Below the pieces are notes generated by a model. It was not told the origin of the DNA and ran no database searches. It worked only from the letters and a program-made list of their open reading frames with translations. A stretch of DNA of 59,448 nt, the filler included, from Dugesia japonica (taxonomy: Eukaryota), in assembly GCA_001938525.1 (NCBI GenBank). It is 6 parts of 6 records of this genome, joined end to end, with 100 filler letters (N's around TTAATTAATTAA, not from the genome) between each part and the next. Parts side by side here need not be neighbours in the genome. Positions count along the whole stretch, not along the records: positions 39,896 to 50,043 come from MQRL01642810.1; 5 more parts are not named here. One strand, given 5' to 3'. Positions 25,484 to 55,728 of this stretch are shown here, piece by piece (the first letter of the stretch is position 1; each line of letters opens with the position of its first letter). The position numbers and the translations under genes are program-made.

Positions 25484-26584
25484 GGTAATGTGCACAAGTT
25501 GTTGTAAACCATTGTTAATATCGGATTTTGTTATAAACATTTATACTATTGTCTTTTGGCATTTTATTTTTTTAAAGTTTGTTTAATGTCACAAAATTTT
25601 TGAATTCTGACATTTGCTTTCTATGTTGGTAACATTTTTGCATTATTTGATATTAAATCCTGTGCTATTTTCATTTCAATTGCACCAATACGTTTAAGAA
25701 TGGACAAATTGATACTATACTGATTGATACTATATAGCGCTTATAACATTTATTTATGTAAAACAAAGAGTTCAATAAAGTTTTGAATCTTGAGCAAGAT
25801 TTATTAATTATCCACTGTCATCGCGTATATTGATTTTTATATAGTTTATACATAAATTAGAAACTGTTAGATACATAAATATTAACTTCGCCAACAATTA
25901 TAAATTCAACAATATTACTATAAATAAACATACTATAATAAACATTTAACTCTCCAAAAAATAAATCAATACCCATCACCTTCCCTCATTCACCCTCTTT
26001 ATAACAAACCAACACCTATCCAAATCCAACAAAAATTCACAAAACTATATACTCATCGTACTCCAAATGCGGGATAACCCATCATTCTGATTGGATGCGC
26101 TCACAATTCTGGAAACCCCTGAGATTTTTTCGCCTTTAGTTACCTTTACCAACATATATAAAACTTTCGAGAGCCAGACAAATCCATCATTAAACACTCA
26201 AAAATACACACACATACACACACCTTTTGACTGTTTTTCGTATTTTCAACCCACACTCACATACACTGCAAATTCAAAAACTTTGCACCGAAAAATAGAC
26301 GTGCACTTTACACACACATTATCAAAACCCCCAATACCCTCAATACTCCCCATTACCATAAAAAAAAATTCCGCCAAAAAAAATTTCAAAAAAAATCAAA
26401 CAAAATTTAAATTCCTAGAAAAATCCCCCTTGATTTTTAAACCAATGAAACAATTTTTTTTCAAATTTAATCCGCTCAAAATACTTAAATCAATAAATCC
26501 ACGATAACCAGTAATCACACAGTTGATGTGAGCGTATGAGGTCAGCCCCCCGGTCGTGATCTGGTGTGCTAACATCTATCTACT
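25484..26584 (-). mobile_element. Deleted Polinton remnant: terminus (26564-26584), PW-type fragment (~25610-25706), protease fragment (25484-25538)
   Basis: Reverse-complement terminus AGTAGATAGATGTTAGCACAC. LSILKRIGAIEMKIAQDLISNNAKMLPT matches the 43090 ORF, and VYNKIRY*QWFTTTCAHY matches the protease. Confidence 0.75.
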
Positions 26585-34771: not shown

Positions 34772-35842
34772 TTATTTTATCGGAAAAAATTTCTTCATTT
34801 CATATCGAAACGGTTTCATGTTTCCATAATAAATGAAAATATTGATTGATTCGACTACCATTGAAAAATACAATCCAATATCATGAATATTATACATGAT
34901 TTGAACTTGATTCCGTACAAATTCACTGTTGTCAGTTAGATTTTCTAAATATGTTATTATAAAAATTAGAAATGCTACCGATAGACCTCCAGCAAGAAAT
35001 AATATTGATAATATCAACACTAAAATTGTTGCTTTGATTTCTTTTTGAAATTGTTTCTTTGAATTCTTTCTTAGCCTTTTCACTTTATTTTGATTTTCAA
35101 ATATTTTCCATAATAAAGAAAAGTTGATAAATAAAATCATCATAACTTGTATGAAACCTGTATTAAGAAATAAACATTTTGACCATTTTAAAATTTCAAT
35201 TACAATTTTATCGTAACTTGCATATGAAGTACAATAGATCTTTTGACCAACTCTTATACTTCTACTAAAAAGAAATGTAAATAATGTCACCATAATAAGT
35301 ACAAATGACATTATTAAACTGGCATAAACTGCACTTTTATATCCGTATTTAATCATTTGTAAGGGATAATAAACTGCCAAAACTCTATCTAAACAAATTA
35401 AAACAAAAGTTCCACAAGACAAAGTTGAACACATAGTATAAAATCCTCTAAAGATTTTACAAGCTTCATTTGACAGATTAATTATAAAAAAATAAATCTC
35501 TCCTTCACTTGAATATGGTAATCCTTTAGCTGGAAACAACCACAACCAACCGTAAGAAAATATAAATAATGTATCATAAATTGATAAGAATGTTAATAAA
35601 ACAGTTTGTCGAGATTTTTTCGGATATTGAAAAGTAAATATATAACATATAAATAAATTACTAACTAAACCAAAGCTTCCAACTATTGGAAAAACGTAAG
35701 CAGACAAAATACCAAGTATGTGACTTAGATAACATAAAGTTGAATTAGTAGTAGACTCGTTTTTTATTTGACATGTATATATCATATCATAAGGAGTGTC
35801 AATATAGGCGTAATTAGCTTTCAGTTGAACATAATCTTTCAT
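34772..35842 (-). CDS. Intronless class A (rhodopsin-like) 7TM GPCR, flatworm-expanded orphan/peptide-receptor-like type
   Basis: Intact 356-aa ORF with seven hydrophobic segments, N-glycosylation sites (NES, NST), TM1 GLVSN, TM2 LSIYD, ECL1 Cys (ACK), CLDRVLAVYYP (DRY equivalent), ECL2 Cys, EIKAT at the TM6 start, and TM7 SINIFIY plus helix-8 FR. Confidence 0.95.
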   Translation of the reverse strand: MKDYVQLKANYAYIDTPYDMIYTCQIKNESTTNSTLCYLSHILGILSAYVFPIVGSFGLVSNLFICYIFTFQYPKKSRQTVLLTFLSIYDTLFIFSYGWLWLFPAKGLPYSSEGEIYFFIINLSNEACKIFRGFYTMCSTLSCGTFVLICLDRVLAVYYPLQMIKYGYKSAVYASLIMSFVLIMVTLFTFLFSRSIRVGQKIYCTSYASYDKIVIEILKWSKCLFLNTGFIQVMMILFINFSLLWKIFENQNKVKRLRKNSKKQFQKEIKATILVLILSILFLAGGLSVAFLIFIITYLENLTDNSEFVRNQVQIMYNIHDIGLYFSMVVESINIFIYYGNMKPFRYEMKKFFPIK

Positions 35843-39895: not shown

Positions 39896-40300
39896 TGTTT
39901 TAAATTTTAAATGGAAATTAAATAGCGAATGATTAGTTTTGTTTTAAATTTTATATGGAAGTTAAATAGTGAATGATTATTTTTGTTTTAAATAACGAGT
40001 GATTATTTTTGTTTTAAATTTTAAATGGAAATTAAATTGCGAATGATTAGTTTTGTTTTAAATTTTAAATGGAAAATAAATAGGGAATGATTAGTTTTGT
40101 TTTAAATTTTAAATGGAAATTAAATAGCGAATGATTATTTTGTTTTAAATAACGAGTTATTATTTTTGTTTTTAATTTTAAATGGAAATTTAGTAGCTAA
40201 TGATTATTTTTGTTTTAAATTTTAANTGGAAATTAAATAGCTAATGATTATTTTAGTTTTAAATAACGAGTGATTATATTTGTTTTAAATTATAAATGAC
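39896..40300. repeat. Minisatellite, ~44-bp unit interspersed with a ~24-bp subunit (Polinton subterminal)
   Basis: TTTTGTTTTAAATTTTAAATGGAAATTAAATAGCGAATGATTA repeated, with the variant TTTTGTTTTAAATAACGAGTGATTA. Confidence 0.9.
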
Positions 40301-40382
40301 GATGTAATAATAAATTAAAAAGTTTGTTTAAATTTTATTATTTAAAAAAAATTAGAAACATTAAAAAATTTATATAGTAAGT

Positions 40383-40529
40383 CTGAGCGGGAAATTTAAA
40401 TATTAAATCTGCGCAGGAAATTTAAATATTAAATCTGCACGGGAAATTTAAATATTAAATCTGCGGGGAAAATTTAAATATTAAATCTGCGTGTGAAATT
40501 TAAATATTAAATCTGCGCGGGAAATTTAA
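40383..40529. repeat. 26-bp tandem array (~5.5 copies) containing GCGGGAAATTTAAA
   Basis: Period exactly 26 (GAAATTT register at 40391, 40417, 40443, 40469, 40495, 40521). Confidence 0.95.
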
Positions 40530-40723
40530 TTATGAAGTCTGTCTTGACGATAGTTGCTATGGATATTANNNNNNNNNNNNNNNNNNNNNNNNNNNNNNNN
40601 NNNNNNNNNNNNNNNNNNNNNNNNNNNNNNNNNNNNNNNNNNNNNNNNNNNNNNNNNNNNNNNNNNNNNNNNNNNNNNNNNNNNNNNNNNNNNNNNNNNN
40701 NNNNNNNNNNNNNNNNTAAACAC

Positions 40724-40790
40724 TTTGACCTTGAAAAAATTTGACCTTGAGGGGGGAGGGGGTGTTTATGTGCGCTAGGATCTATCTACT
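40724..40790 (-). mobile_element. Polinton terminus (outer end at 40790) with G-tract and two TGACCTTGA motifs
   Basis: Reverse complement AGTAGATAGATCCTAGCGCAC matches the termini at 17950, 26584 and 59125. Confidence 0.7.
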
Positions 40791-41030
40791 CATATGTTAT
40801 GCATGATTTACTTGAGATTATTATAAATATTGTTCGTGGTAATGTAAATTTGAGCGAATCTAAAAAAAACATAAAAAAACATTGAAAAACCTTACTATCG
40901 CTTGTAAATACTAAAAATAGGAGATTGATTAGGAAAGTAATACGAAATAATGAAGGTGGTGAATTTATAGCAGCATTAGGCGTAACTCATTTCAAAAAAA
41001 CAATTGAAGCTTTTGATCAATTTATTAATA
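40791..41030 (+). pseudogene. Small basic Polinton protein (upstream of integrase), 5'-truncated
   Basis: LLEIIINIVRGNVNLSE...KKH*K.L...RRLIRK...NEGGEFIAALG resembles the conserved N(I/L)xxGNVxL...QxGGF small Polinton ORF. Confidence 0.65.
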
Positions 41031-41043
41031 AACAATNGGTGGA

Positions 41044-42108
41044 TTGCAATCATTACCTAATTTTGACTTAAAATTGGCATCGAGTTGTTGTAATGGGTTT
41101 CGAAGCGTAGAGAAATTGATGAAAGCATCTCAAAAAACGAAAAGAAAGACAAAAAAGTGGTTATCGGAACAACTAGCGCACAGTCTGAACAAGCCGATGT
41201 TGAAAAGATTTCCAACAAGAGCATATAAAACATATAGTATTGATGATTTATGGTAAATGAATCTAATGGAGATTCATTCCATATTCAAAAATTAATAAAA
41301 GATACAAGTATATTTTGACATGTATCGATGTATTCAGTAGATTTGCAAGAGCTGTTCCTGTTAAATCAAAAGCTGCTAATAATATGGAACCAGCAATCAA
41401 GTCAATGTGTAAAAATGGACATCCAGATAATTTACAAACGAATTTGGGTAAGGAAGTTTACAATTCCAAGGTGAAACAACTTATAAATCATCTATCCATA
41501 AACCATTACAGTGTATTCTCTCAGTATAAAGCTGCACATGTAGAGATATTTAATCGCACATTGTGAGATGCATTGAAAAGTACTATGTACATGTTGGTAA
41601 TAAAACTTGAATAAATGTTTTACCGAAACTTATTCATAGTTATTATCATTCTGGTCATACGAGATTTAATGGAGCAAGACCGGTTGATGTAAGTACAAAC
41701 AATCAATTAAAGTTATGGTTATCACTTAAACATTCAAAAGCAAATAAAATACCAAAATATAAAGTTGGTGATCATGTGAGAATCTCAAAAATATCTGCTT
41801 CACCATTTATCAAGAATTTCAATAGTAATTGAAGTGATGAAGTTTTTCCAAAAAACAAAAATAAACAAAATCCGATCATGTATGTTAATAAAGATTATGA
41901 AGATAATATTGTTCAAGGAAAATTCTATGAACAAGAATTACAAGTCATTCCACCACCAAAGATAAATGGAATAGAAGCAATAATCAAATCAAAAGAAACT
42001 GGAAAGAATAAACAATACTATGTAAAATGACATGGATACGAAAAACGGAGTTGGATATTAGCATCGCAAATAGTCAATCAGGAAGAAAATTTAGATGAAA
42101 TCGAGTAA
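41044..42108 (+). pseudogene. Polinton retroviral-like (c-)integrase with C-terminal chromodomain
   Basis: KWL..Q..HSL.KP...RFP...IDDLW; LTCIDVFSRFA; LQT.LGKE.YN; KAAHVE.FNRTL; KYKVGDHVRISK; GKFYEQELQ; YYVK*HGY...SWI. Confidence 0.95.
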
Positions 42109-43100
42109 TTTCTATACGCTTTTACCTAGTAATAGCTGTCCACTTATTCATCCTAAGAATAATGTTAGTAAATTCATTGTCGAGCTACAAAATCCAATTT
42201 ATATGGATGGTAGTTGAGAAATTGCAATGATGGACTTCACCTTTCTATAGTCACCATTTCCGGTATATAGCAAGTCAAAAATTGAATATATGACTGCAAA
42301 AATATATTGAATTAAATAACTGTAACAATAAATAACAAGAAAAAAACACTTAGTGTTGATAAAAATAAATTTTTTGAAATATTTGAAAATAATCTCATAA
42401 GATTTTATTGTGATTTTCCATATATTGTCATATTTGAAGATGCACATATCGCACAATCATTTAAATTAGGATTTAAATCTAACAAATTATCAAAGAAATT
42501 TGGTCATGTCTATACAAACTTTACAAATGATGACACAGTACAAAAAGTAAAAATTAAAGTAACTTATACAGTGGTGAATTATCAGTTTATAGATGATATA
42601 TACATATCAGAATTGGAACAATTAAGTTAATATTTGACCGAAAATTTTACTCAAATATTTAAGAAATGTCTTATAAATGCGGATAAATATTTTGAATTCG
42701 AGCTACAAGATGATGTCAAAAAAGTTGTATTTGATAATGTCTTGACAAGAACATTGGGATTATTCTCCTGAAGATATGAAGGAAGGTCAGTTCAAAACTA
42801 TTACCAAGTCAAAAATAATGAAATTACATCAGCAAATGTTCATCTATAGTAGTCTTGTTGAACCTATAATTNNNNNNNNNNNNNNNNNNNNNNNNNNNNN
42901 NNNNNNNNNNNNNNNNNNNNNNNNNNNNNNNNNNNNNNNNNNNNNNNNNNNNNNNNNNNNNNNNNNNNNNNNNNNNNNNNNNATGTATAAACAATATAGA
43001 AATTAATATACGCGATGATAACGGAAAATTAATTAAGTTTCCAAAACATTCAAAAATCCATTTAACTTTACATTTTAGAAAACTAAAAAATGAATCCTGA
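42095..43100 (+). pseudogene. Polinton minor capsid (penton-like, single jelly-roll) protein
   Basis: FYTLLPSNS...PKNNVSKFIVELQNPI.MDG.*EIAM; MFIYSSLVEPII; IEINIRDDNGKLIKF...LTLHFRK. Confidence 0.9.
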
Positions 43101-43323
43101 TATTTTTTCAATGTATAGTACTAGTCAAGCAGGTGGAGAATTACCTTACTTTCTTTGAAAACAGTATGGATCTAGTTGGTTGAGAACCATAGGTAGATTT
43201 GCTTTACCGATTCTTAAACGTATTGGTTCTTTTGGTATGAAAACAGCTCAGGATGCACTAGCTTATGCCGGAAAAATACTATCAAAATTGAAATCAAATG
43301 GATTAGCTGAACTTGGAATTTAA
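43090..43323 (+). pseudogene. Polinton PW-type small virion protein with GG motif and amphipathic helix
   Basis: YSTSQAGGELPYFL*KQYGSSWLRTIGRFALPILKRIGSFGMKTAQDAL. Confidence 0.8.
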
Positions 43324-43325
43324 AC

Positions 43326-43468
43326 TTTAAACAATAAACCTGCTCAAATACTAGTATTCGATCCATTAGCATTTAATTATCCATCAATGTTGGTGTCACA
43401 CCTATCGAAAATATTGAAGCCAATAGTCTACAATAAAATCCGATATCAAGATCCATTTACAACTACAC
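43326..43468 (+). pseudogene. Central fragment of Polinton protease joined directly to PW (MCP deleted)
   Basis: NNKPAQILVFDPLAFNYPSMLVSHLSKILKPIVYNKIRYQDPFTTT aligns with 38170-38310. Confidence 0.75.
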
Positions 43469-44474
43469 TTTTTATTATGGTTGAAAAAACAACATTGTAC
43501 TTGACAATATTTATTTGTTCTTGTTGTAAAAAATAAATGTCTTTTATTGAAATGAAATCTTTGTTATTTATTAAATATTTGTAAGTAATATGCTAATAAT
43601 ACATGTTTTTTTATTATCAAAAAAAAATTAAATTAATTTAAAATACTGCAACGTAATATATCTGTATTTTGTAAAATTAATTTAAAATATTACAACGTAA
43701 TATGCCTGCATTATTTTAAATAAATTTGTCATTTTAAAATACACACATATTCGAATTTGATTGGTTAGATTTGAAAAACTTGCTAAAATTTATTATTATT
43801 CATCACAATTTCAAATTATTTTTAGAAAACAAGTGAGCTTGAAGTAATTTATTATTAACATTATTAACTTTTATTTTTAGAATAAACATGAATTCATATA
43901 AACAAAATGGAAAAAGATTTATTTCAACTACGAATGCTGTAAGATTGTTATTATTTATTATTAATAAATTAATTATGTAATTTAGAATTTTAATGAAATG
44001 CGACATAGAGGTGAAGGATCTCACGTTAGTTCTTTTGATTTTATTATATTTTTAAATATTTTTTTATAAGTTAAATTTTAATAAAATAAAACTTTTATGT
44101 TAAGTTATTATGAAGAACAAATTGCCATGTTCTATGTTATGAAGAAATGTTCTATATTATCAAGAAATGTTATGAAAAAGAAATGCTCTGTGTTTTTTTA
44201 AATGAAAAAGTTCTATGCTTTTATCATTTTTTTCTGAAAAAATTGCATCGCTAATGACATTTTTTATTAAAAATTGCAACAGTAAAAAAACGTTTATTAA
44301 CAATTACACCGGGAATGAGGTTTTTTATATAAAATTGCATCACTAACTTGATTTTGTTTATTAAACATTACCACTTTTATATGTTTTTTTTTAAATGGAA
44401 AATAACAGTTAATAAATTTGTTTTAAGAAGAAAAATGTTAAAATCATTATTTTATTAATATTAAATTATTTCAG

Positions 44475-45260
44475 AACTTTGCAAATTATACAATCATTGC
44501 GTAAATGTGAGTCATAATGGTGACTGTCATAGTATCATGGAAGAATATTATGGCCAACGGTTTTATGGAATAAATTATTTTGTGTGTCCCAATTGTAAGG
44601 TATTAGGCTTAAGTGACTATCCAAGTTTTTATATGACGCATAAGAAACACTTGTCTTGTTTTAGTAAAAGTAAAAAAAATATTTTAAAATCAATATTAGA
44701 TAGTCAGATGGATAGTGAGTTTTATGAAGCACCAGTAAATAAGAGAATTAAGATGGATGAAATAACAGTTAAGGATGAACCGGTTGAAATAATTGTTATT
44801 GAAGATGATGTTGAAGAAATAATGATCAAGGATGAACCAGTTAAAATAATTGTTATTGAAGATCATGTTAAAGAAAAAATAATCAGTTGAAAAAATTGAA
44901 TATGTTCTTGGAGAAATTATCAATTTGGATCTAAAAGAAGAAACAACATATATTGTATAAGAAGAAACAGCAAATATTGAATCTGATGATTGGAAAAGTT
45001 TTGAAATAATTTATGAACTTGATGAAAAAGATATCATGTTACATGAGCTCGTCGATATGAAAGAGGAAAATAATCAAGTTGGTGAATCGATAATGAATAC
45101 TGAAGAAGATATCATGTTACAACAATTTATGAATGCAGAAGAAACGGAAATTAATAATCAAATTTGTGGATCAGCAGATAAAACTGCGGAGGATGAAGTA
45201 ATTATAGAATCGGATTTGTATCGTTGTCATAGGATACTTAAAATAGATGTTTTGAGATAG
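44475..45260 (+). pseudogene. N-terminal extension / terminal-protein region of pPolB (Zn-finger-like, acidic repeats)
   Basis: Acceptor-like ttatttcAG at 44474, CPNC...H..H, NLS-like PVNKRIK, and a 57-bp duplicated VKDEPVEIIVIEDD. The 45036 ORF is in frame with pPolB across one stop. Confidence 0.6.
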
Positions 45261-45275
45261 AATTGTCGTGAAATA

Positions 45276-46370
45276 ATGTTACCAGAAGCTATAGTAAACA
45301 AATTATTTCAGACAATAGAAGGAATGAAGAAAGTTAAAATTCAATTTGGGATACATGTAGAGTTCAAAAGAATAATAACAACTGCTGATGGAGAAGAATT
45401 TGAGTTTAAAACNTGTAGGATATCAAATAGAGCCGTTGCATTAACTGATAACGTTTTTGAAGATGGGATCAACCAATTGAATGAGAAAATAACAATAAGA
45501 AGTGAACTAGGCTCCAGTTGGATGTTGAACAGAATACTTGAAATTAATTTAAAAATTACAAAGATCGCAGATATATGTCGACTTTCAGGAAAAAGTTATA
45601 TTCCAACACCGGAAGATTTAAAAAAGAAAGACGCAATTGTAAACATCAAGAACAATGATAATTACTGTTTTATTTACAGTATTCTTGCTATCACCAAAAG
45701 TGATCAAGTTGGACAAAGGAATAAAATCCGAGTAACATTATATAAAAAATACATGTCGGAGTTTATTTTTGATGAAGAGGATATGCCAATGAAACTGATT
45801 GATATACCTAAGTTTGAGAAGAATAATCCAGGACTATCCATCAATGTCCTATCATGGAATCCAGAATCAGTGGAGGATGAAGATGATGATGTAGTAATGA
45901 AACATCCAAATTTATACATAATTCATCGTTCAAAAGTAATAGATGGAGAAAAAATATATCTGTTATTAAAAATATATCTATATGGTTGGGCACTTAGTCA
46001 AAAATTACCCTTTGCAAATTTTGAATGGGTCTATGATGGATTAGATAGGATTTTGGAAGAGTTTAAGAATGCAGGCCTAGATTCATTGTCATATGGATAC
46101 ACTCTAGAGGTTAACATGGTGATTCCTGCAGAGATTCATGATTATTTGAATGATTTGCCGGTTGCAGCAGAACATAGAAGCGCTCCAGGTTGTAAAGTGA
46201 AGAAATTAATATCAACGCTCTACTCCAAGAACAATTACGTAGTGCACTGGAGATTGCTGCAAATGTATTTAAGTTTAGAAGTTAAAGTAATAGAAATTCA
46301 TCGAGGAGTTATATTCAGCCAGGCTTCAATTTTTGAGAATTATATCAACACCAACACAATTCTCAGATAA
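45276..46370 (+). pseudogene. Polinton pPolB with in-frame deletion of the exonuclease region and truncated C-terminus
   Basis: GSSW, SYIPTP..L.KK.AIVNIKN.DN.CF.YSILA, IPKFEKNNP.LSINV, then directly LYGWALSQKLP, GYTLEV...IHDYLNDLP.A.E, KLI.TL..K.NYVVH, IHR...FSQ...YI..NT..R. Confidence 0.93.
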
Positions 46371-46650
46371 AATTGTAGTACGGAATTGGAAAGAAATTAT
46401 TATATACCTAACTATAGAAGAAATGCTGGAAAATATTGAAAGAAATTATTTCGATTCCGAATTAAAAATATTACCATCAATTCAAGAAGGTAATTTAAAA
46501 AAGATATATTATTTAATTATAAGATTTAATTAAAATTATATGCTTAAAATAAAATAAGACTTTGATTAAATAAGATTTATTATAGAACATTAAAATAAAC
46601 CACACATAAAAGCAAACAAAATATTTACAACACTTAACAAATAAAGTCTT

Positions 46651-47414
46651 TTACAACCAAGAAACAAGATGTTGGTGTGATTGTTTGACATTGCATACTG
46701 GATCTAAACTAATAAATAATACGTTTACATAAATAAAAACTATTTTACAGACATTTTTCTTCCTATCCACACGAAATTGTCTTTGTTTACCAAATGCAAT
46801 TGATAGAGCTTGCATTTTAACATTTGTTCTGTTTATATTAATTATCTCCGGACTCTGATATTGTCTGCCCATGTTCTATTTATTGGTAATGTTCACTTTT
46901 TCTTCCTTATAAATCTCAATAGCTACTGTTAATGGATCAAGTTCATAAAACCTTACCAAGTTTTTCATCAAAAACGTCATGTTTTCAAGAACGTTTGGAT
47001 CGAATTAAAGTTTTTTAGAGCTTTCTTATTTTCTTAATACCTAATTAAATAATAATTATTGTATTAATAATAATAATAATATTACCACCAAACTATCAAG
47101 AAATTGAATTTCTATCAAACTCATTTGTAGTTTCTTCTCCAACTTATATAACGATACTACAAAATTTCGTTGTTGGATATTTCTGTCATTGGATTAATAA
47201 AGGGTTCCAGATTGTATTCTACTTTTTTTCTCTCTGCTTTTTTTATAATACACCTATTCAAATTGTCCATATAATTCAGTGTATAGGCTTGATTAATGAT
47301 TGACAATACTTTGTATCCTGCATTTGGTAGAGAATCTTCATTATCTTTGTTGCAAATATCTATCTGCTTGAGCATTTCATATTGTTTGTGTGATGAGTTG
47401 CGAATATCTACCAT
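46651..47414 (-). pseudogene. Spliced Polinton accessory gene of unknown function
   Basis: ATG at 47414 with a TATA ~35 nt upstream. A ~44-nt GT-AG intron at ~47041-47084 preserves the frame (QFLDSLV|VLRK...FYELDPL...). Several stops are present. Confidence 0.45.
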
Positions 47415-47447
47415 TTTGAAAATAATGAAATATTTAAAAGAATCTCT

Positions 47448-47985
47448 ATTTATATACTTTTTTATGTATGTTTGTATAATTTTTATTAGTTATAGAAGGG
47501 ATAGAAACAAACTAGAAACCAATAGAAATCCTGGAACCAATAGAAATAAAGAAACCAATAGAAATCCATCTGGAAAAAGAAAAGAAAAACAGTTGTTGTT
47601 GTAATAAATGTTTCTTATTGTAATTAGTTTTTTATTAATAAATACAATAGATNTGCAACTCAGATGAAACTCAAATGCAACACATATACACTAAAAAATC
47701 ACATGCCTGGGAATTGTTATTGATATTTTAAATAAATGCAATACGTATGCAACTCAGATGCAACCCACATACACTGAAAATCACTCGCTTATGAATTTTA
47801 GACTTCCTCGTCCCTTGCAAAATAACAAGACTGTCCCATCTCTTACATAAATAAATTAATTTAATTAAATTTAATTTAATTATAATAAAAAGATTTCCCA
47901 CAATGAAATGAAAAATTTCCAACCAAAAGATTTTTTTTGAATTTCCCGCCAAAAAATATTTTTTTTGAATTTCCTGCCAAAAAAG
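47448..47985 (-). promoter_or_regulatory. Putative promoter: TATA, 3x CCAAT (18-bp period) and E2F-CHR composite sites
   Basis: TATATAAAT (reverse complement of 47448-47456); AACCAATAGAAAT at 47517, 47535 and 47553; TTTGAA-TTTCCCGCCAAAA at 47936-47954 with a one-mismatch copy at 47964-47982. Confidence 0.55.
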
Positions 47986-48489
47986 TTTTTAAAAATATCC
48001 AGACTTGCCTCTTCCCTGTTCGAAAATATTAAAAAACAACCCTTCCCGGTTCAAAATACCGAAAAAATAACCAAAAATACATCAAATACATTAAAATAAC
48101 ATTACTTTCATTAAATTTATCAATTTCAGCAAAATACAGCATTTTTAACCAAATTAAAGATTTCAAAAAATTTTGACGTCATAACCACACAACAGAAAAA
48201 TTTCAAATAAATCTTATAAAATCCGATAATTAATTCTCTTTCCAGGCATACCAACCTCCACCTCACGAAAAATTTTTTAACACACTTATACTACTTAAAA
48301 ATAAACCAATCAAATAGTAGCCCTTAAAATAAAAAATCAAAGTACATTCGGCAACCAAAATTTTTTCCATTACATTACCTCTCCAACAAACCATCAACTA
48401 ACAAATTCCATCAACAACAAACAAACCTACAGCCTCCATAAAACTACCCATGATAACTCATACGCCTGTGCCCGTGTATGAGAAAGGCC

Positions 48490-50043
48490 ATTTGTTTGAA
48501 TGTTCGAGAATTGAAATTTCTGGAATTCGTGGATTTGTGTTTCGTTGTTGTTGAGCCTGTTGCGCTAAATAATCAATTTCCATAGATAAATCGTTCTGAA
48601 TGACACTGAGGAATTCTAATCAGTTCATGGGGCGGCTCCTCGGAAGTAACGTTACTGGAATAAGTGTGATTTTTAATTTCTCGTATCTAGTTCTCCATTT
48701 TCCATACTCATTTGTTAAGTCAACATTTTCAATGATAAGATTCTCATTTTTTTCTTTCATCCCTTGTTTTCCTTTGTTTAACTGTTTATTCTCCCGAATC
48801 ATATATTTATTACTGTTTTCCAGATTCTGTATTATTGTACGACTTTCCTGACACGCTTCCTTCCATCTTTTACTCTCAATCTCTTAATTCTCTTTATCTT
48901 TGATTTCTCTTTGAATTCTTTCGAAATGTATTTGCTGAGCCTGGGTTCTGGCTAAATATTTATTTTCAATCGTTAATTCTAGCATCTTAGTTTTCTTTTG
49001 GTTTCATTTTATTTCTGTTCTATTTTCATCAATTCTATTATAACAATAAGGGTTAAGAATAAATTCAATTTGTTATATATTAATTCTAAGCTGGACTAGC
49101 ATCATCTCTGTCTTTATATTCACGCTAATTTGTATGGGTATTTACATTTCACTTGGCTTAGCATTTCATATGTAACAGTTTAAATACCTGCGATTGTCTT
49201 CTCGACTTCACTTTACTTTACATCTCTCCTTTATTTGGATTCTCTTTTCTCACACAACACTCATTTTGCAATTCTTGTTTTCTACAGAAATAATTGTGAT
49301 TCATTTAAATCTTTTGCACTACACTACACTCTACTATAACATTTTGAGCTTAAGCTGTTTACACAATTTTCTACTTTCTCATTACCACATATTGTAATTA
49401 ACAATATTATTATAGCTACAAATTCACCGACTCTACCGATGAGTCTCATTCACCATCCATCACCCGCTTCTAATATCCACGTTATCGTCTTCATTTTCTC
49501 TAATTGATTTAGCTAATCTGGTTTGATTTTTTATCCCGTTGGCCCTTTCCATCTTTTGCATTAGTCTTTCGAAAATATCGTTTTCTGCCTGATTCAGCAC
49601 TCTTATTGGCACTTTTAATTTTTCAATTGTTTTCATTCCAGTTTTGTGTTGATTCACTTCGACTATTTCTCTTTTACTTGTCGTATTGATTTTTGTGATA
49701 TTGTTTACATTACTCTTTTTTATTGTTTCTGGTTTTGTCGCCTCTCAACCTCGTGTCGTTTTCGGTTTACTGATTGGCCTTATTGACGTTTCTCTTGTAC
49801 TTGTTATCCTTGTTGTAATTCTTGTTTTGATGACTTGTTTTGTCGTTTTATCTGGTAGTAGCTCCCACACTATCATAACCTTCACTTTAAACCATATTCC
49901 ATATTTTAATTCTTGCTGATTGCCGCTCCAATTATAATTGAGTAATAAGTCACCATTTTTCCAATCTTGAAGTGATAAATAATGTCCGATTCTCACGTTT
50001 TGTTTTCTTCCTTGCAACACTGATAAGTCTACAAACTTTTCTG
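48490..50043 (-). pseudogene. Degenerate ORF region with Thr-rich stalk, a hydrophobic segment and a coiled coil; possibly a 3' accessory/env-like region of an LTR element
   Basis: KTRITTRITSTRETSIRPISKPKTT, then FVAIIILLITICG (other frame), then a long heptad-like stretch. Many stops. Confidence 0.3.
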
Positions 50044-50143: not shown

Positions 50144-50349
50144 ATAAAGATATAAATTTTAAAATATTCAAATGTACATTGTGAAAAGTGGTCATACTTG
50201 TGTCCATTGGACATAGTCCGGTGAGTTGGGGGTATTGCGACGCCGATAACGCTGTCTCTTCCACTTATAGCGCTTGTGAATTTGATAAATTGATACTATA
50301 AACGCTACGAGGAAGAAATACACCGGTTCCCAAAATTATTAGGGGAATA

Positions 50350-53349
50350 CTTTTTATTATTTTGCTTTCAGGTTCTGGAATTTTTGGGTATCTCAATATT
50401 GGCGCTGTTATTAATTTTTTTTAACTTATCGAAAGCTTTCTGTTGATTGTTTCCTCATAATTTTTTGTAATTTTGATGAGCTTTCATCGATTTTCTCAGT
50501 GATCATCACATTTTTACTTTCTCATTTTGTTTTTAAACCTTTTGTTAATTCTACTAGCGGGGCAGATATTTTATCAAAATCTTGTATGAATCTTCGATAA
50601 TATCCAACTAATCCGTTATAACTTTGTAGTTGTTGTACTGTTTTTGGTATTGGGAAATTCTTTACTGCTTCTATTTTATCTGAATTTGGTTGTAAACCTT
50701 TTGATGAAACAATATGACCTTAAAATAATACCTGTTCCTCTGCCCATTTGCATTTTGTTGGCTTTAATTTTATGTTTGCCTTTTGCAATCTAGACATCAT
50801 ATTTATATGTTTATTAAATGTTGCTCAAAATATTCTGATGCAATCAAAATATCGTCCATATATACTGTTACATGTCCCACATCTATCAGAACTGTATTTA
50901 TCAATCTCTGAAATGAGGCTGGTGCGTTTTTTAAACCAAATGGCATTCTTGTAAACTCCTTTAATCCATCTTCGGTTACAAATGCATTCTTTTCTCTATC
51001 CTGTAATAAAACTTTTAAACTATAAAAACCTTTATTGGCGTCAAATATAGCAAACCATAGTGCTTTACTTAATTTATTAAATTGCTCTTGTATTTTAGTA
51101 ACTTCGTTTAACTTTCTATAATCTACACACATTCTGATTTCTCCATCTTTTTTCTTTACTGGTGATGCCCATGCAGAGAAGCTTTGTACTATTATTCCGT
51201 TGTCTTTTAATTCTTTTATTTGTCTCTTGACTTCCTCTCTTAATTTATATGATGCAACCTATGACCTTTGTTTAATGGGTTTGGCACTACCAGTGTCAAT
51301 GGTATGTTGTATAATATCTGCTTCACCCATATAAAATTCATGTTTTGCTAAAACATCTTCATATTTATCAATTAATGTTTGTAGTTGCTGTCGCTGACGC
51401 GCTGTCAAATTGTTATTTTGGTTTTATCATAAAATTTTGTTTGCTTAGGTATGATTTTATCATAAATTAGTGTTTCTTTTACTATTTGCTTTTGTCTTAT
51501 ATGATTATTATCATTAATGGTAATTTCATTTATTTCACAGTCCTCGTTTTTTATATATAGTTTACCTAATTTTATACCTGGGAGAAGATTAACATCTTGA
51601 TTATTATAATTAGCAATTCTTATATGCATGTTTCCCTCTTTTGGTACAAAGCATCCGGGTACTATTGATATATTAAATTTTTTCTCTAATTGATTATTTG
51701 GTTCAAAAAACTAAGTATTGTCACTACGGAACCCTAATTTTACAGGCATTATGCATTCGCATGAGTATTCTATTTTTGCGTTAGATTGTAGATATAAATC
51801 GTTATTTGTCTTTTCATTATTTATGGGGGTTTATTTTTATAATTATTATTTTGTAAATCTATAACATACTCTGTTAATTTTGATAGTAAACCCATTTCCA
51901 AAATACAGTCTTGTATTCCCTGATCTACGACTCGGAATTGATGTTGAATATTTTCATTTTCTAAGATAATGTTACAATCTATTATCCCCTTTATAGGTAG
52001 TCTATGACCCGTAAATGATTTTAATTCTTCTGACAGTTTCGTATCCAGATTTTCTTGTTGTTTTTTATTGAGAATGTCTCTTTAATTATGGAGCATGCGG
52101 CTCAAGTGTCTATTAAGTAAGGTATGTTATATCCATTTACCGATATTATCATGGTTGGTCTAGGAATATCTCCATTTATTACACAAATCTCATGTGATTT
52201 TCTAGGTGCGGTGTATCTTATTAATTTTTCGTTTTCAAAGTTTGATTTTATTTCATTACGCTTATCGGTTTTTAATTGATAGGGTTTATTATTGTAATTA
52301 TTTATTTATCTATTTATTTCTTCTCCTTTGATAGAATATAATGTTTCCCGTCCTCCTTAATCTTTTAGCCATTTTGTTAAGAATTTTTGTACCATTTTAG
52401 AAATTAAATCTTTAGCTACTTTTAATCTTTGGATAGGATTTTCCTTTAACACATCTTTTAACCAAATTATCATGTATAATATAGCTATAAGTGCCTTATT
52501 TAAATCAATTCCATCTTTTAATAAAACTTTTATTACTTTATATTCGTCAACATTATTTGTTTCTGCAACTGCTTCCACTCGTCTTTTTACAACTTCCATA
52601 TCTTGCCATATCAATTTTGCTCGTTTATTTATCCTTACTACATCAAAAAGTTCAACATTTGCTAATATTATGAGATCTCAGATTAAATTGCTTGAATCAC
52701 TTTCCTTTATATGACCAAATGTCTTTGCTATATCATTTAATTTAATTACCTGATTTTTTAGTGGTGATGGTTCATTTGATCTTGGTCTTCCTCTTAATCG
52801 TCTCACAGTTTCCTCATTAGAAGGGCCTGGATCATCTGGATGTCTCGGTTTCCTTGATTCTGTATTTGTAACTGTATTTTTTACTTGAACTGATTGAGTT
52901 GTATTTATATCTGGTTGATTATCATTTCTCACTTGATCTTGCTGATTATTTACTGGAGATTCTTGTTCTATAAATATTTTCTTTTGTGGGATATATTTCT
53001 TTTTACCTTCATCTTTAATTTCCTCTATTATATCGTGATCGAGAAGGTTCAATATTTCATTCATCGCTTCCTTCTGTTCCTCGGATAATCTATTTATTAT
53101 CTTGACTTTTTTATGATTATCACCTTTAGGAATAATTCTATATTCCATCAATCTTTTATTTTCAATCAGCTCGTGATTAAAGAAATATAATTTTATTTCA
53201 TCATCCTCTTCTAATGTTATCTGCCATTTTGCTCTTATTATTTTTCGTAATTTTTCTGTTTTTGTAAGCGCATGTGTGCTTATTATTACAGCTTTTATAT
53301 TGCAGCTACTTGGTTCGAAGAAGCTTGTATTATTATAGGTTTCTGCCAT
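50350..53349 (-). mobile_element. Ty3/Gypsy retrotransposon remnant: long gag, protease, dUTPase-like spacer, RT
   Basis: Gag-like 52357-53349; protease YLIDT*AACS...CILG; HIRIANYNNQDVNLLPGIKLG; RT VKKKDGEIRMCVDYRKLN, DANKGFY, FTRMPFGLKNAPASFQR, VYMDDILI, GLVGYYRRFI, TAPIL.YP. Confidence 0.92.
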
Positions 53350-53589
53350 TCTACATTAGTTTTGAAAAATTCACTGTATTTCTTTATTTATCCATCAAAG
53401 CCACTTCTTATTGACCGTCCATATAAATTTGATTTTGAATCTCAACACTGAAATTACTAGCATTATTATCAGAATGAATAAGTGGACAACTATTGCTCGG
53501 TAATAGTATATAGAAATTATTCGTTTTACTCATTTTTCTTCTTCTTTTTTGAATTTCGATTTGAGATGCTGATATTCGAGTATTCGAAT

Positions 53590-54315
53590 GTTCCCTTTGA
53601 TCTTATAATCTTTTCTATTCTAAATACTGTTGACTGTGGAATTACTTGTAATTTTTGGACATAAAATTTTCCTTGAATAATATTATCTTCATAGTCTCTA
53701 ATCATGATTGGATTATACTTGGATTCTGTTTGATATTGATTTTAGATATTTGAAACACTTCATCGCTCCAATTACTATCAAAATTCTTGATGAATGGTNA
53801 AGCTGATATCTTTGACATTCTAACATGATCACCAACTTTATATTTTGGTTTTTTAATTACTTTTGGTTTTTGTTTCAATAGCCATAATTTCATTGAATTT
53901 TCAAATTATGCATATACAGATTTTGCTCCATTTAATCCATTATAACTTCTATGATTATAATTATAAATTATTTTTGGTAATACATGTATCCATGTTTTAT
54001 TTCCAGTATGCACAAAGTACGTTTTCAATGCATCTCTTAATGTTCGATTAAATCTTTCAACATATGCCGCTTTGTATTTCGAAAATTCTGAATAGTTGTT
54101 AATTTTGAGAAGTGAAATAATATTCTTAACTTTAGAGTTGTAAAATTCCTTTCCCAACTCAGTTTGTAAATTATCTGGATGTACATCTTCAAACATTAAC
54201 TTGATTGCCGCTTTCATTTCATTTGCAGATTTTGCCTTGACTAAAACAGCTCTCGTAAATCTGCTTAATACATCGATACATGTTAAAATGTACTTGTAAC
54301 CTTCATAAATATTTG
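53590..54315 (-). pseudogene. Second Polinton integrase, partial
   Basis: YKYILTCIDVLSRF...LQTELGKEFYN...KAAYVERFNRTL...KYKVGDHVRMSK...WSDEVF...QGKFYVQKLQV...FRIEKIIR. Closely similar to 41300-42000. Confidence 0.93.
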
Positions 54316-54807
54316 AATTTACTACTTTTTTACTACAAGAGTTGTTACTTTGAATTTGTTTACAATGAAGACGTTTACTATTCGACAGTTTTCATTATTG
54401 AAATTCTTGATGAAATATAATGATATTGAAAATTTGATTGTTCCATCCTGTAATAATTGTTTCATATATAATATNAGTTTCATGTCATTAATTTGTTCTA
54501 ATGATTTCAATAGACTCTGTGAAAACATTTATTGTCTTCATTTTCAGGATTAATTTTTGATTGTATAATAAATTATAACAATATCAATTTTTAATGATTG
54601 GTATAGAAAATATTATTCTCACCATCCGCAGAGTTTCTACAAAATTCAAATCAATTAAAGAAATTCAAAAGAGTCAGAAACANNNNNNNNNNNNNNNNTT
54701 ATGATATTTAATTAATGTTTATCAATTTGATAATTTATATTTAAATTATTTTTTAATATTTAAAATTAATTTATTTTAACCAATAGAAATTCAATTAAAT
54801 AATAAAT

Positions 54808-55728
54808 ATGTTTATTTTTTTCTATTATTTTCTAAAATTTGATTTAAATCTAAATCAAAAAAAAACTATGCAATCTGTAAGTAAATCTTTTATATATATT
54901 GATAATATTCTTTACAAACTAAATCGTCTAAATAATGAATTGTTTGCGATATTAGTTCCAAATGATGAAATACCTAATTTCACACCCTTGGTAGAAGAAA
55001 AGATTATAAAAATAAATGGTAGTGTTGGTATACCTATGAATGAAGAAGAATANNNNNNNNNNNNNNNNNNNNNNNNNNNNNNNNNNNNNNNNNNNNNNNN
55101 NNNNNNNNNNNNNNNNNNNNNNNNNNNNNNNNNNNNNNNNNNNNNNNNNNNNNNNNNNNNNNNNNNNNNNNNNNNNTCTCAAAATTCATCAAAATTAAAC
55201 GAGAAGCAAATTATTAAAACTAATAACAAACAACTCAAAATAAAACAAGAAAATAAAACAAAAAAAAATATTTTGATTTCATTACACGATAAGAAAAAAG
55301 AAAATAAAAATGAAAATAAATTAGATATTAAATTTGAAAGCAATGTAAATGAAATTATTGAGAAAAATCCAATTTCTAAAATTGAACAGTTCTACAAAAA
55401 TATTTTTACAAATTGCATTAAACAAAATCAAAATTTAACCATAACTGATGATGATTTATTTGNAGATTTTCCATGTAAAAGTAGTAAAAATATGAAAAAT
55501 AAATTTGGAAATAAAAATCAAACTAAAAATATCAAACTTGAAAATAATATTGAAAACGTGTTTAACAACCACAAAATGCGAACTAAAAAAAATATTCAAA
55601 TTGAAAAAAGCAGCAAAGAATTTGATGAAACTAAAGAAATTTCAATAGATAGCGTAGATTTGGAAGATAATGAAGTTTTAAGAAAAATAGCTTTGAATAT
55701 TTATAATTGTGAAGAAATGAAGTTTTAA
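54808..55728 (+). CDS. Hypothetical K/N/E-rich protein (ORF spans an N gap; probable start 54868)
   Basis: Long stop-free frames on both sides of the gap, with an AACCAATAGAAAT box at 54778 identical to the Polinton promoter motif. Low complexity, no recognised domain. Confidence 0.35.
   Translation: MFIFFYYFLKFDLNLNQKKTMQSVSKSFIYIDNILYKLNRLNNELFAILVPNDEIPNFTPLVEEKIIKINGSVGIPMNEEEXXXXXXXXXXXXXXXXXXXXXXXXXXXXXXXXXXXXXXXXXXSQNSSKLNEKQIIKTNNKQLKIKQENKTKKNILISLHDKKKENKNENKLDIKFESNVNEIIEKNPISKIEQFYKNIFTNCIKQNQNLTITDDDLFXDFPCKSSKNMKNKFGNKNQTKNIKLENNIENVFNNHKMRTKKNIQIEKSSKEFDETKEISIDSVDLEDNEVLRKIALNIYNCEEMKF

What the first reader, a model, noticed from the sequence alone, without database searches (positions are those of the whole stretch)
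47448..47985. Cell-cycle-type promoter architecture (TATA + 3x CCAAT + E2F-CHR pair) at the far end of the contig-5 Polinton
Seen: three AACCAATAGAAAT boxes at 18-bp period, a perfect TTTGAATTTCCCGCCAAAA with a near-perfect second copy, and a TATA ~35 nt before the ATG at 47414. A related TTCCGCCAAAA lies near another terminus (~26369), and the same CCAAT box precedes ORF 54808. Known: multiple NF-Y boxes plus E2F/CHR sites typify S/G2-M promoters. This is a second occurrence in an unrelated sequence context, which supports the 40383 observation.
Basis: partly seen in the sequence, partly recalled or inferred. Interest (0 to 1): 0.7.

Follow-up and report, generated by a model that had tools for sequence, protein, structure and literature searches.

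The report
Dead gene's promoter beside Polinton relic

Summary
All quoted motifs are present. The minus-strand ATG at 47414 starts a real but broken gene. It has a 45-nt GT-AG intron and belongs to an unnamed family of ~230-aa helical proteins (10 database relatives). TATA (-30), an initiator-like TCA+1TT and CCAAT boxes at -95/-113/-131 form a credible RNA polymerase II promoter; 4 of 1848 ATGs in the window have both TATA and an NF-Y-like box.

The cell-cycle label fails two tests. The boxes are 18 bp apart, below the published 19-bp minimum for double NF-Y binding. The E2F/CHR pair lies 510 bp upstream of a TATA start, whereas CHRs usually sit at TATA-less starts. Both multiplicities are tandem duplications.

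The pair does have DREAM geometry (CDE, 4 nt, TTYRAA) and may drive its own upstream start (Inr 47909, intron 47846-47570). Similar words occur only here and at 40383, both facing inward across the Polinton relic.

'Far end of the Polinton' is unproven. PolB is cut off at 46403, no terminal repeat was found, and 66 distant pPolB loci lack both the gene and the motif. Verdict: probably a real promoter; cell-cycle control and Polinton ownership remain open.

The parts
46675..47414 (-). Broken gene of an unnamed ~230-aa, predicted all-helical family. It has a frameshift near 47150 and three stops after the intron.
   Evidence: 88% identical to P0001 and 34-46% to P0003-P0011, leaving aside a 10-aa overlap with P0011; no Pfam, PDB or fold match
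47041..47085 (-). 45-nt phase-0 GT-AG intron, ATT-rich
   Evidence: Matches a 15-residue gap against P0003; ends GTAATA...AATTAG; P0001 reads into the same insert and stops
47424..47428 (-). Initiator-like TCA+1TT; predicted start 47426, 12 nt before the ATG
   Evidence: 30 nt from the first T of TATA; only 2 loci among 125 TATA sites have this spacing, and only this one has CCAAT upstream. Initiator consensus recalled; TSS not mapped
47447..47456 (-). TATA box (TATATAAATA)
   Evidence: the word alone is common
47514..47568 (.). 18-bp tandem array carrying three CCAAT boxes (47517, 47535, 47553), inverted relative to the gene, centres at -95/-113/-131; boxes 1 and 3 are 36 bp apart and identical
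47570..47846 (-). Candidate 277-nt 5'-UTR intron: GTAAG donor at 47846, pyrimidine tract plus CAG acceptor at 47570 (lead only)
   Evidence: Only acceptor-like site with 18 or more pyrimidines in 20 in the whole window; 33 sites pass at 16 of 20; an out-of-frame uATG follows the acceptor
47617..47773 (.). Degenerate local duplication, about 96-bp period, between the CCAAT array and the E2F/CHR array
   Evidence: 78% over 63 nt
47906..47911 (-). TCATTT initiator-like word, 27 nt downstream of the CHR; candidate upstream start at 47909
   Evidence: Only TCAKTY in 47300-48500; background is 2 per kb
47914..47990 (-). 28-bp tandem array with E2F/CDE + 4 nt + CHR (TTCAAA): one intact copy (47936-47954), one with a changed CG core (47964-47982), one or two further decayed copies
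48011..48072 (.). 31-bp tandem pair (TTCCCGG/TTCAAA-like words) at the edge of a C-rich block
   Evidence: function not tested
44537..46403 (+). Polinton protein-primed PolB relic, with an internal deletion (aa 332 to 785) and missing its last ~260 aa; converges on the orphan gene
   Evidence: tblastn with P0012-P0017; those relatives carry PF03175
41125..43470 (+). Polinton integrase, minor capsid, core-gene and protease relics; major capsid missing here
   Evidence: rve hit; tblastn with L017 proteins
40366..40541 (+). 26-bp tandem array (6.8 copies) of GCGGGAAA + TTTAAA upstream of the integrase module, facing inward
54778..54790 (+). Fourth exact AACCAATAGAAAT, in another contig, upstream of an unidentified K/N-rich ORF

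Best explanation
The interval is the 5' regulatory region of a spliced gene that is now dead, and it has two separate parts. The proximal part is an ordinary TATA/initiator/CCAAT RNA polymerase II promoter. NF-Y would bind one box, or boxes 1 and 3 at 36 bp, but not all three. TFIID would bind the TATA box and start transcription near 47426, 12 nt before the ATG. The distal part, about 0.5 kb upstream, is a DREAM-type E2F/CHR site that would repress in non-dividing cells and release in cycling ones. It would act as a distal element or through its own start, not as part of the TATA promoter. The three-fold and two-fold copy numbers come from local tandem duplication, which is frequent along this relic. 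Shown: the gene, intron, motif positions and repeat structure. Inferred: the TSS, all factor binding, and any cell-cycle timing. Undecided, about even: whether the gene was a Polinton accessory gene or a duplicated host gene beside the relic.
For: The gene is real and starts where its family starts. The 45-nt GT-AG intron fits the protein gap. TATA to Inr is 30 nt, and the combination with CCAAT is unique in the window. 4 of 1848 ATGs have both TATA and an NF-Y-like box. All 4 differences between array units 1 and 2 fall outside the 9-nt NF-Y core (p about 0.04). The same 13-mer recurs at 54778. 36 bp is a preferred double-CCAAT spacing (PMC4889920). CDE-4nt-TTYRAA is the DREAM layout (PMC4974476) and is conserved in worm, fly and human (PMC3093354). 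A near-complete Polinton (L017) has a TATA 42 nt before its spliced PolB start, the same spacing as here. Arrays of 26, 44, 31, 18, 28 and 31 bp lie along the contig.
Against: No TSS or binding data. TATA, CCAAT and the generic CDE-CHR pattern are not enriched in the window. The CCAAT array also parses as a 9-10-bp AGAAACCAA minisatellite. The E2F cores are decaying: the second copy has lost its CG, and in the 40383 array the core is more changed than the rest (6 of 42 vs 4 of 114 positions, p = 0.024). In Schmidtea, CCAAT enrichment was found in intestinal and epidermal promoters, and no motif was enriched in stem-cell genes (PMC10558129); the host here is only inferred to be a planarian.
Confidence: 0.55

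Rival explanations
1. A Polinton lineage carries inward-facing E2F/CHR arrays at both ends (40383 and 47936). They tie transcription of the integrase module and of this accessory gene to cycling cells, as E2F sites do in small DNA viruses.
For: GCGGGAAATTTAAA with up to 2 mismatches occurs 8 times in the window, all in these two arrays and facing inward. Vertebrate Mavericks have accessory regions flanking inward-facing core modules (PMC8097293). L017 has subterminal tandem repeats and a spliced PolB, so an intron does not exclude a Polinton gene. E2F sites drive polyomavirus early transcription (PMC12642449 abstract). Adintoviruses encode Rb-binding Oncoid proteins (PMC8502044).
Against: No terminal inverted repeat or shared flank. 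PolB is truncated before the orphan gene. No orphan homologue in 66 pPolB loci, and no enrichment of the motif there (SGGAAATTYRAA 1 vs 1.1; CDE-N4-CHR 23 vs 18.5 +/- 2.3); those loci are distant (25-39% PolB identity) and many are fragments. No LxCxE motif in the 10 family members. Intact vertebrate Mavericks are intronless.
Confidence: 0.25
2. The E2F/CHR pair is itself a canonical TATA-less DREAM promoter. It starts near 47909, makes a 63-nt first exon and splices 47846-47570 into the region upstream of the ATG, so the gene has two promoters in tandem.
For: The CHR is 27 nt from the only TCAKTY in 47300-48500. The only GTRAG donor between the pair and the gene is 47846. The acceptor at 47570 has the strongest pyrimidine tract in the window. 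CHRs lie on or near the start (PMC4176359).
Against: Thresholds were chosen after seeing the site; at 16 of 20 pyrimidines the chance in 480 nt is 0.13. Inr words occur at 2 per kb and donors at 1 per kb. The spliced leader would begin exon 2 with an out-of-frame ATG and a 27-codon upstream ORF. This promoter would have no CCAAT box upstream within the stretch scanned until 48306.
Confidence: 0.25
3. One reading: TATA, three CCAAT boxes and the E2F/CHR pair form one canonical S/G2-M promoter.
For: All the ingredient motifs are present within 540 bp and in one transcriptional direction. Three CCAAT boxes plus a CHR control cyclin B2 (PMC3287175). An inverse TTTGAA and a TTTAAA also lie within 11 nt of the predicted start.
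Against: 18-bp spacing, against ~33 bp in cyclin B2 and none below 19 bp in vivo. TATA is present, and the CDE/CHR is 510 bp away, outside the +/-200 window used for functional CHRs. TTTGAA occurs in 531 of 2165 100-nt windows, so the near-start copy is uninformative. The gene product has no known cell-cycle family.
Confidence: 0.12
4. The motifs are chance words in AT-rich DNA, amplified by slippage, with no regulatory meaning.
For: Generic patterns are not enriched. The arrays are tandem repeats among 110 repeat rows in the window. The E2F cores are mutating. The matrix margin over the next site is small.
Against: The positions fit an independently identified gene start: 4 of 1848 ATGs, and a unique TATA-Inr-CCAAT combination. 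The CCAAT core is invariant within its array, and the 13-mer and the E2F/CHR word each recur elsewhere.
Confidence: 0.12

Closest known systems
DREAM/MuvB-controlled CDE/CHR late cell-cycle promoters (cyclin B2, CDC25C, CDK1; C. elegans DRM motif 1)
   Same: A GC-rich E2F/CDE site followed after four bases by TTYRAA; three CCAAT boxes in the same upstream region.
   Different: TATA present; CHR 510 bp from the TATA start and upstream of the CCAAT boxes rather than downstream; boxes 18 bp apart instead of 26-36; multiplicity made by tandem duplication; the gene is dead and of unknown function.
Ordinary TATA + initiator + NF-Y (CCAAT) RNA polymerase II promoter
   Same: TATA at -30, TCA+1TT, CCAAT from -95, short 5' UTR, AAAATG start. 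Typical distances are recalled general knowledge.
   Different: Three boxes packed at 18 bp, so at most two could be occupied at once; an extra distal E2F/CHR array.
Polinton/Maverick (adintovirus) accessory region and subterminal repeats
   Same: Gene faces inward beyond PolB; tandem repeats near the ends, as in L017; same INT-mCP-core-(MCP)-PRO order as L017.
   Different: No terminal inverted repeat, target-site duplication or matched AGTAGT ends found; PolB truncated and on the same strand as the integrase; no homologue of the gene in 66 pPolB loci.
E2F sites in DNA-virus control regions (Merkel cell polyomavirus NCCR; adenovirus E2 promoter, recalled)
   Same: E2F consensus upstream of genes of a nuclear dsDNA virus-like element.
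   Different: Here the site is paired with a CHR (DREAM type), tandemly repeated, distant from the start, untested, and no Rb-binding LxCxE protein was found in the gene family.

Membership tests
CDE/CHR + NF-Y late cell-cycle promoter | CDE/E2F site four nucleotides upstream of a TTYRAA CHR | tested here: met
   TGGCGG-GAAA-TTCAAA on the minus strand at 47951; definition
CDE/CHR + NF-Y late cell-cycle promoter | CHR on or very near the transcription start (within +/-200) | tested here: inconclusive
   510 bp from the predicted TATA start (not met), but 27 nt from a candidate upstream initiator; no TSS data
CDE/CHR + NF-Y late cell-cycle promoter | Multiple CCAAT boxes spaced about 26-36 bp, at least 19 bp | tested here: not met
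   Adjacent spacing 18 and 18; only boxes 1 and 3 (36 bp) qualify
CDE/CHR + NF-Y late cell-cycle promoter | Usually TATA-less | tested here: not met
   TATATAAATA 30 nt before an initiator-like site
CDE/CHR + NF-Y late cell-cycle promoter | Motifs conserved above flanks across orthologues | not testable with these tools
   No DNA for the relatives: the genome-contig scan found 0 relatives among 18 pattern matches. Within arrays, CCAAT and CHR cores are conserved and the E2F core is not
CDE/CHR + NF-Y late cell-cycle promoter | DREAM/NF-Y binding and S/G2-M-peaked expression | not testable with these tools
   Needs ChIP and expression data
TATA/Inr/CCAAT RNA polymerase II promoter | TATA about 30 nt before an initiator, upstream of a real start codon | tested here: met
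TATA/Inr/CCAAT RNA polymerase II promoter | NF-Y-type CCAAT box within about 60-130 nt of the start | tested here: met
   Centres at -95, -113, -131
TATA/Inr/CCAAT RNA polymerase II promoter | Mapped transcription start | not testable with these tools
   No transcript data
Polinton terminus / accessory region | pPolB and rve integrase in the same locus | tested here: met
   (both decayed)
Polinton terminus / accessory region | Terminal inverted repeats with AGTAGT-type ends and a target-site duplication enclosing the interval | tested here: not met
   No significant inverted match between left and right regions. One ACTACT at 48290 among 25 such words in the window, with no partner at the left end. 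A 148-N gap and the contig start may hide the left end
Polinton terminus / accessory region | Downstream gene is found in other Polintons | tested here: inconclusive
   0 hits in 66 distant pPolB loci; genomic context of the 10 close relatives is not available
Polinton terminus / accessory region | Intronless genes | tested here: inconclusive
   The gene has an intron. Vertebrate elements are intronless, but L017 PolB is open only through two GT-AG introns
Adintovirus Oncoid gene | LxCxE motif with paired CxxC | tested here: not met
   0 of 10 family members carry LxCxE; definition

The most novel reading that the evidence does not exclude
A lineage of animal (probably flatworm) Polintons carries tandem E2F/CHR (DREAM) arrays at both ends, facing inward, plus an NF-Y/TATA promoter for a spliced accessory gene of a new helical protein family. 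The element would thus be silent in differentiated cells and switch on in cycling stem or germ cells, where an insertion is inherited. It would be a first described cis-regulatory logic for Polintons, as far as the searches reach.
Probability: 0.25. Interest if true: 0.65.

Novelty: new member of a known kind. Interest (0 to 1): 0.33.

Why it matters
How Polintons are transcribed, and in which cells, is little described. My searches for Polinton with E2F (3 papers) and for Maverick/Polinton with promoter and factor-binding terms (5 papers) gave no title on this, and the word 'promoter' does not occur in two main papers on animal Polintons. If the E2F/CHR arrays prove to be a conserved part of the element, they give a direct test of whether Polintons time their activity to dividing stem cells. 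They would also offer a compact candidate cycling-cell promoter. If the gene is a host duplicate, the result is modest: one more TATA/CCAAT promoter of a pseudogene, plus an unnamed protein family worth annotating.

Tried and rejected
Identity of the downstream protein. Pfam gave no consistent family across the 10 members. The PDB sequence search gave one weak match at E 0.09. The ESM Atlas gave no usable hit for the 85-aa piece and only scores of 0.80 or less for P0003. The AlphaFold model was low confidence (pLDDT 52.8, pTM 0.45). Foldseek found nothing at E <= 0.001 in PDB or viral libraries, and VIA's best Z was 5.8 over about 50 helical residues. No longer or fused forms were found among 8000 candidates, and there was no phage match. 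P0002 was dropped as a repeat-driven chance hit.

Planarian PEVE ORF3L ranked 7th in the viral fold search (E 1.4, TM 0.20). That is not significant, and the paper describing it was not available, so it stays a lead.

Terminal inverted repeat between the 40383 region and the right end: not significant. Homology of the C-rich blocks at 25850-26520 and 47880-48460: not significant (50 of 200 shuffles reach the score), so it is treated as composition. A contig-6 against contig-5 score above the null was not displayed; a follow-up showed only low-complexity AT-rich and AAT-repeat matches and no tblastx hit.

The plus-strand 102-aa ORF 47296-47604 over the CCAAT array has no family and overlaps the real gene in antisense, so it was rejected as a gene. 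No Rfam match in 46300-50043. The decayed coding-like stretch 48460-50043 has no Pfam family in any of six frames; one fragment scored only below-cutoff coiled-coil hits. The ORF after the 54778 box stays unidentified.

A general Polinton-wide E2F/CHR enrichment was not found in 66 loci, 512 kb.

Left unchecked: names and sources of P0004-P0011, the host species, viral and metagenome contig collections, and supplementary files of all papers.

Full report
Setting. The window is six unrelated contigs joined by N44-TTAATTAATTAA-N44 spacers; contig 5 is 39896-50043. The DNA is about 28% G+C with ATT microsatellites. I infer an animal host, probably a triclad flatworm, from composition, the 45-nt intron and a rhodopsin-family receptor gene in contig 4. 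No call names the host; the only named polymerase relative is from Hydra at 34% identity. On the plus strand, contig 5 holds a decayed Polinton: integrase 41125-42072, minor capsid from 42107, a core gene at 43090-43314, protease to about 43470, and a protein-primed PolB at 44537-46403. The PolB jumps from residue 332 to 785 and ends at residue 928 of 1191. The major capsid gene is missing here.

Observation. Every quoted motif is present at the stated place. The boxes are at 47517, 47535 and 47553. The E2F/CHR word is at 47936, with a second copy at 47964 that differs by one base in the CG core. TATATAAATA reads on the minus strand at 47456-47447. Tandem Repeats Finder calls the boxes an 18-bp array of 3.1 copies and the pair a 28-bp array of 2.4-2.9 copies, so each is one origin plus duplication. 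Arrays of 26, 44 and 31 bp lie elsewhere in the relic. Generic patterns are at background: TATAWAWR 125 against 119-140, CCAAT 137 against 140-151, CDE-N4-CHR 2 against 1.15-1.5 in 20 Markov simulations per order. The narrow words are rarer than chance but were chosen after the fact: SGGAAATTYRAA 3 against 0.15-0.25, and the 13-mer expected about 0.017 times.

The gene. The 85 residues from 47414 found 3 proteins among 1.84 billion; one was dropped as a repeat-driven hit. P0001 is 88% identical, and P0003 led to 8 more relatives among 169 candidates, 45-62% identical and all unnamed. These align to the minus strand from about 47400 to 46675. The window copy has a frameshift near 47150, three stops after the intron, and a 45-nt GT-AG intron at 47085-47041 that equals the 15-residue gap against P0003. 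So it was a spliced gene and is now dead. Its function stayed unknown after Pfam, PDB, Atlas, AlphaFold (pLDDT 52.8, helical) and three fold searches. None of 10 members carries LxCxE.

Proximal promoter. TATATAAA begins 30 nt before the A of TCATT at 47426, which lies 12 nt before the ATG. Among 125 TATA sites, two loci have such an initiator-like word at 28-33 nt, and only this one has CCAAT upstream. The box centres are at -95, -113 and -131. Of 1848 ATGs with clean upstream sequence, 4 have both a TATA and an NF-Y-like box; 1.5 would be expected if the two were independent. That is a small fraction for a start identified independently. The four differences between units 1 and 2 all miss the 9-nt NF-Y core (p about 0.04), although the array also reads as a 9-10-bp minisatellite. 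I take this as a probable TATA/initiator/NF-Y promoter. The initiator consensus and typical distances are recalled.

Why it is not a canonical cell-cycle promoter. [quoted passage not shown] Cyclin B2 keeps about 33 bp (PMC3287175 passages). Here neighbours are 18 bp apart; only boxes 1 and 3, at 36 bp, could be bound together. PMC4176359 passages say CHRs are usually in TATA-less promoters, on or very near the start, with CCAAT boxes upstream of them. Here the CHR is 510 bp from the TATA start and 377 bp upstream of the boxes. In Schmidtea, CCAAT was enriched in intestinal and epidermal promoters, and no motif in stem-cell genes (PMC10558129 passages).

The E2F/CHR pair. On the gene's strand it reads TGGCGG-GAAA-TTCAAA, which fits CDE, four bases, TTYRAA (PMC4974476 passages). 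That layout is conserved in worm, fly and human (PMC3093354 passages). It may have its own start. The only TCAKTY in 47300-48500 is at 47909, 27 nt after the CHR. The only GTRAG donor before the gene is 47846. The acceptor at 47570 is the one site in the window with 18 or more pyrimidines in 20. Against this, 33 sites pass at 16 of 20, initiator and donor words are common, and exon 2 would open with an out-of-frame ATG. I keep it as a rival at 0.25.

Link to 40383. GCGGGAAATTTAAA with up to two mismatches occurs 8 times in the window: 6 in the 26-bp array on the plus strand and 2 here on the minus strand, both facing inward over the Polinton genes. A matrix from the left array ranks 47952 first of 113,278 positions, but at 12.8 bits against 12.4 for an unrelated site. 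The flanks do not align beyond chance (20 of 200 and 13 of 30 shuffles reach the score). So this is not a preserved terminal inverted repeat. It is either an old shared repeat or the same motif used twice. The E2F cores are decaying: 6 of 42 core positions against 4 of 114 others vary in the left array (p = 0.024). The 26369 word lacks a CHR four bases away and is not at any shown terminus.

Does the gene belong to the Polinton? For: it faces inward beyond PolB, where vertebrate Mavericks carry accessory genes (PMC8097293 passages). A scan of genome contigs with a PolB alignment gave 66 loci. One of them, L017, is a near-complete element with the same capsid-module order, subterminal tandem repeats, and a PolB that is open only through two GT-AG introns with a TATA 42 nt before its ATG; an intron therefore does not exclude membership. 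Against: PolB is cut before the junction, no terminus was found, none of the 66 loci encodes the family, and the motifs are not enriched in them (1 against 1.1; 23 against 18.5; NF-Y boxes 88 against 105; 8 simulations). Those loci are only 25-39% identical in PolB. An intact host receptor gene lies within 1 kb of a Polinton relic in contig 4, so adjacency proves little. A scan with the family alignment found no locus. I rate ownership about even.

Literature reach. Polinton with E2F gave 3 papers, and Maverick/Polinton with promoter and factor-binding terms gave 5; I saw listings only, and no title concerns Polinton promoters. 'Promoter' does not occur in PMC10748475 or PMC8502044. E2F control of a viral control region is known for Merkel cell polyomavirus (PMC12642449, abstract only). 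PMC1802594, PMC3198968 and PMC6431247 were seen as passages for background. No supplements were read; they could hold annotations of Polinton termini.

Verdict. The reading as one S/G2-M promoter fails on spacing, TATA and distance. The reading as a Polinton end is unproven. What keeps it of interest is the DREAM-type word repeated at both flanks of the relic and nowhere else in the window. Interest 0.33; new member of a known kind; boldest case 0.25 likely, 0.65 if true.

Noticed in passing
L017:1969-2421 (-): A near-complete Polinton in a contig binned into a bacterial MAG encodes a small TBP-domain protein (PF00352, E 2e-10) in its accessory region next to the protease. A Polinton-borne TATA-binding-protein-like gene bears on how these elements are transcribed.
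   Followed up: partly
L017:8810-9232 (+): The PolB gene appears to start at 8852 after a TATA box and to carry two GT-AG introns (8946-9012, 9076-9232); the spliced frame is open for 3456 nt. The first exon looks by eye like a zinc finger, but my pattern test did not match it.
   Followed up: partly
window 44238-44369: 31-bp tandem array (AAAATTGCATCRCTAA) about 170-300 bp upstream of the PolB start, with a 44-bp array at 43628-43727; possibly another multimerised factor site.
   Followed up: no
window 39896-40337: 44/70-bp higher-order satellite running to the contig start just outside the 26-bp E2F/CHR array; could be subterminal repeat of the element or a host satellite.
   Followed up: no
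window 54808-55728: K/N-rich ORF, more likely starting near 54868, preceded by the same 13-bp CCAAT word; no Pfam or PDB match.
   Followed up: partly
window 34772-35842 (-): Intact 356-aa rhodopsin-family receptor gene lying about 850 bp from a Polinton core/major-capsid relic.
   Followed up: partly
window 50144-54320: A reverse-transcriptase retroelement relic with a 223-aa upstream ORF begins right after a Polinton integrase and minor-capsid fragment that is 72% identical to the contig-5 copy.
   Followed up: no
window 48460-50043 (-): Decayed coding-like sequence with a coiled-coil stretch, running toward the E2F/CHR pair; no family found in six frames.
   Followed up: partly
window 25850-26500 and 48000-48400: Two strongly C-skewed blocks, each next to a GGCGG-containing word and near Polinton relics; they do not align beyond chance.
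   Followed up: partly
P0003 model against BFVD: Planarian PEVE ORF3L (Q910R8) ranked 7th with E 1.4 and TM 0.20; not significant, but worth a profile comparison given the likely host.
   Followed up: no
L001-L066: 66 contigs with eukaryotic-type protein-primed PolB sit inside bacterial and archaeal MAGs of the genome collection, most likely as binning contamination.
   Followed up: partly
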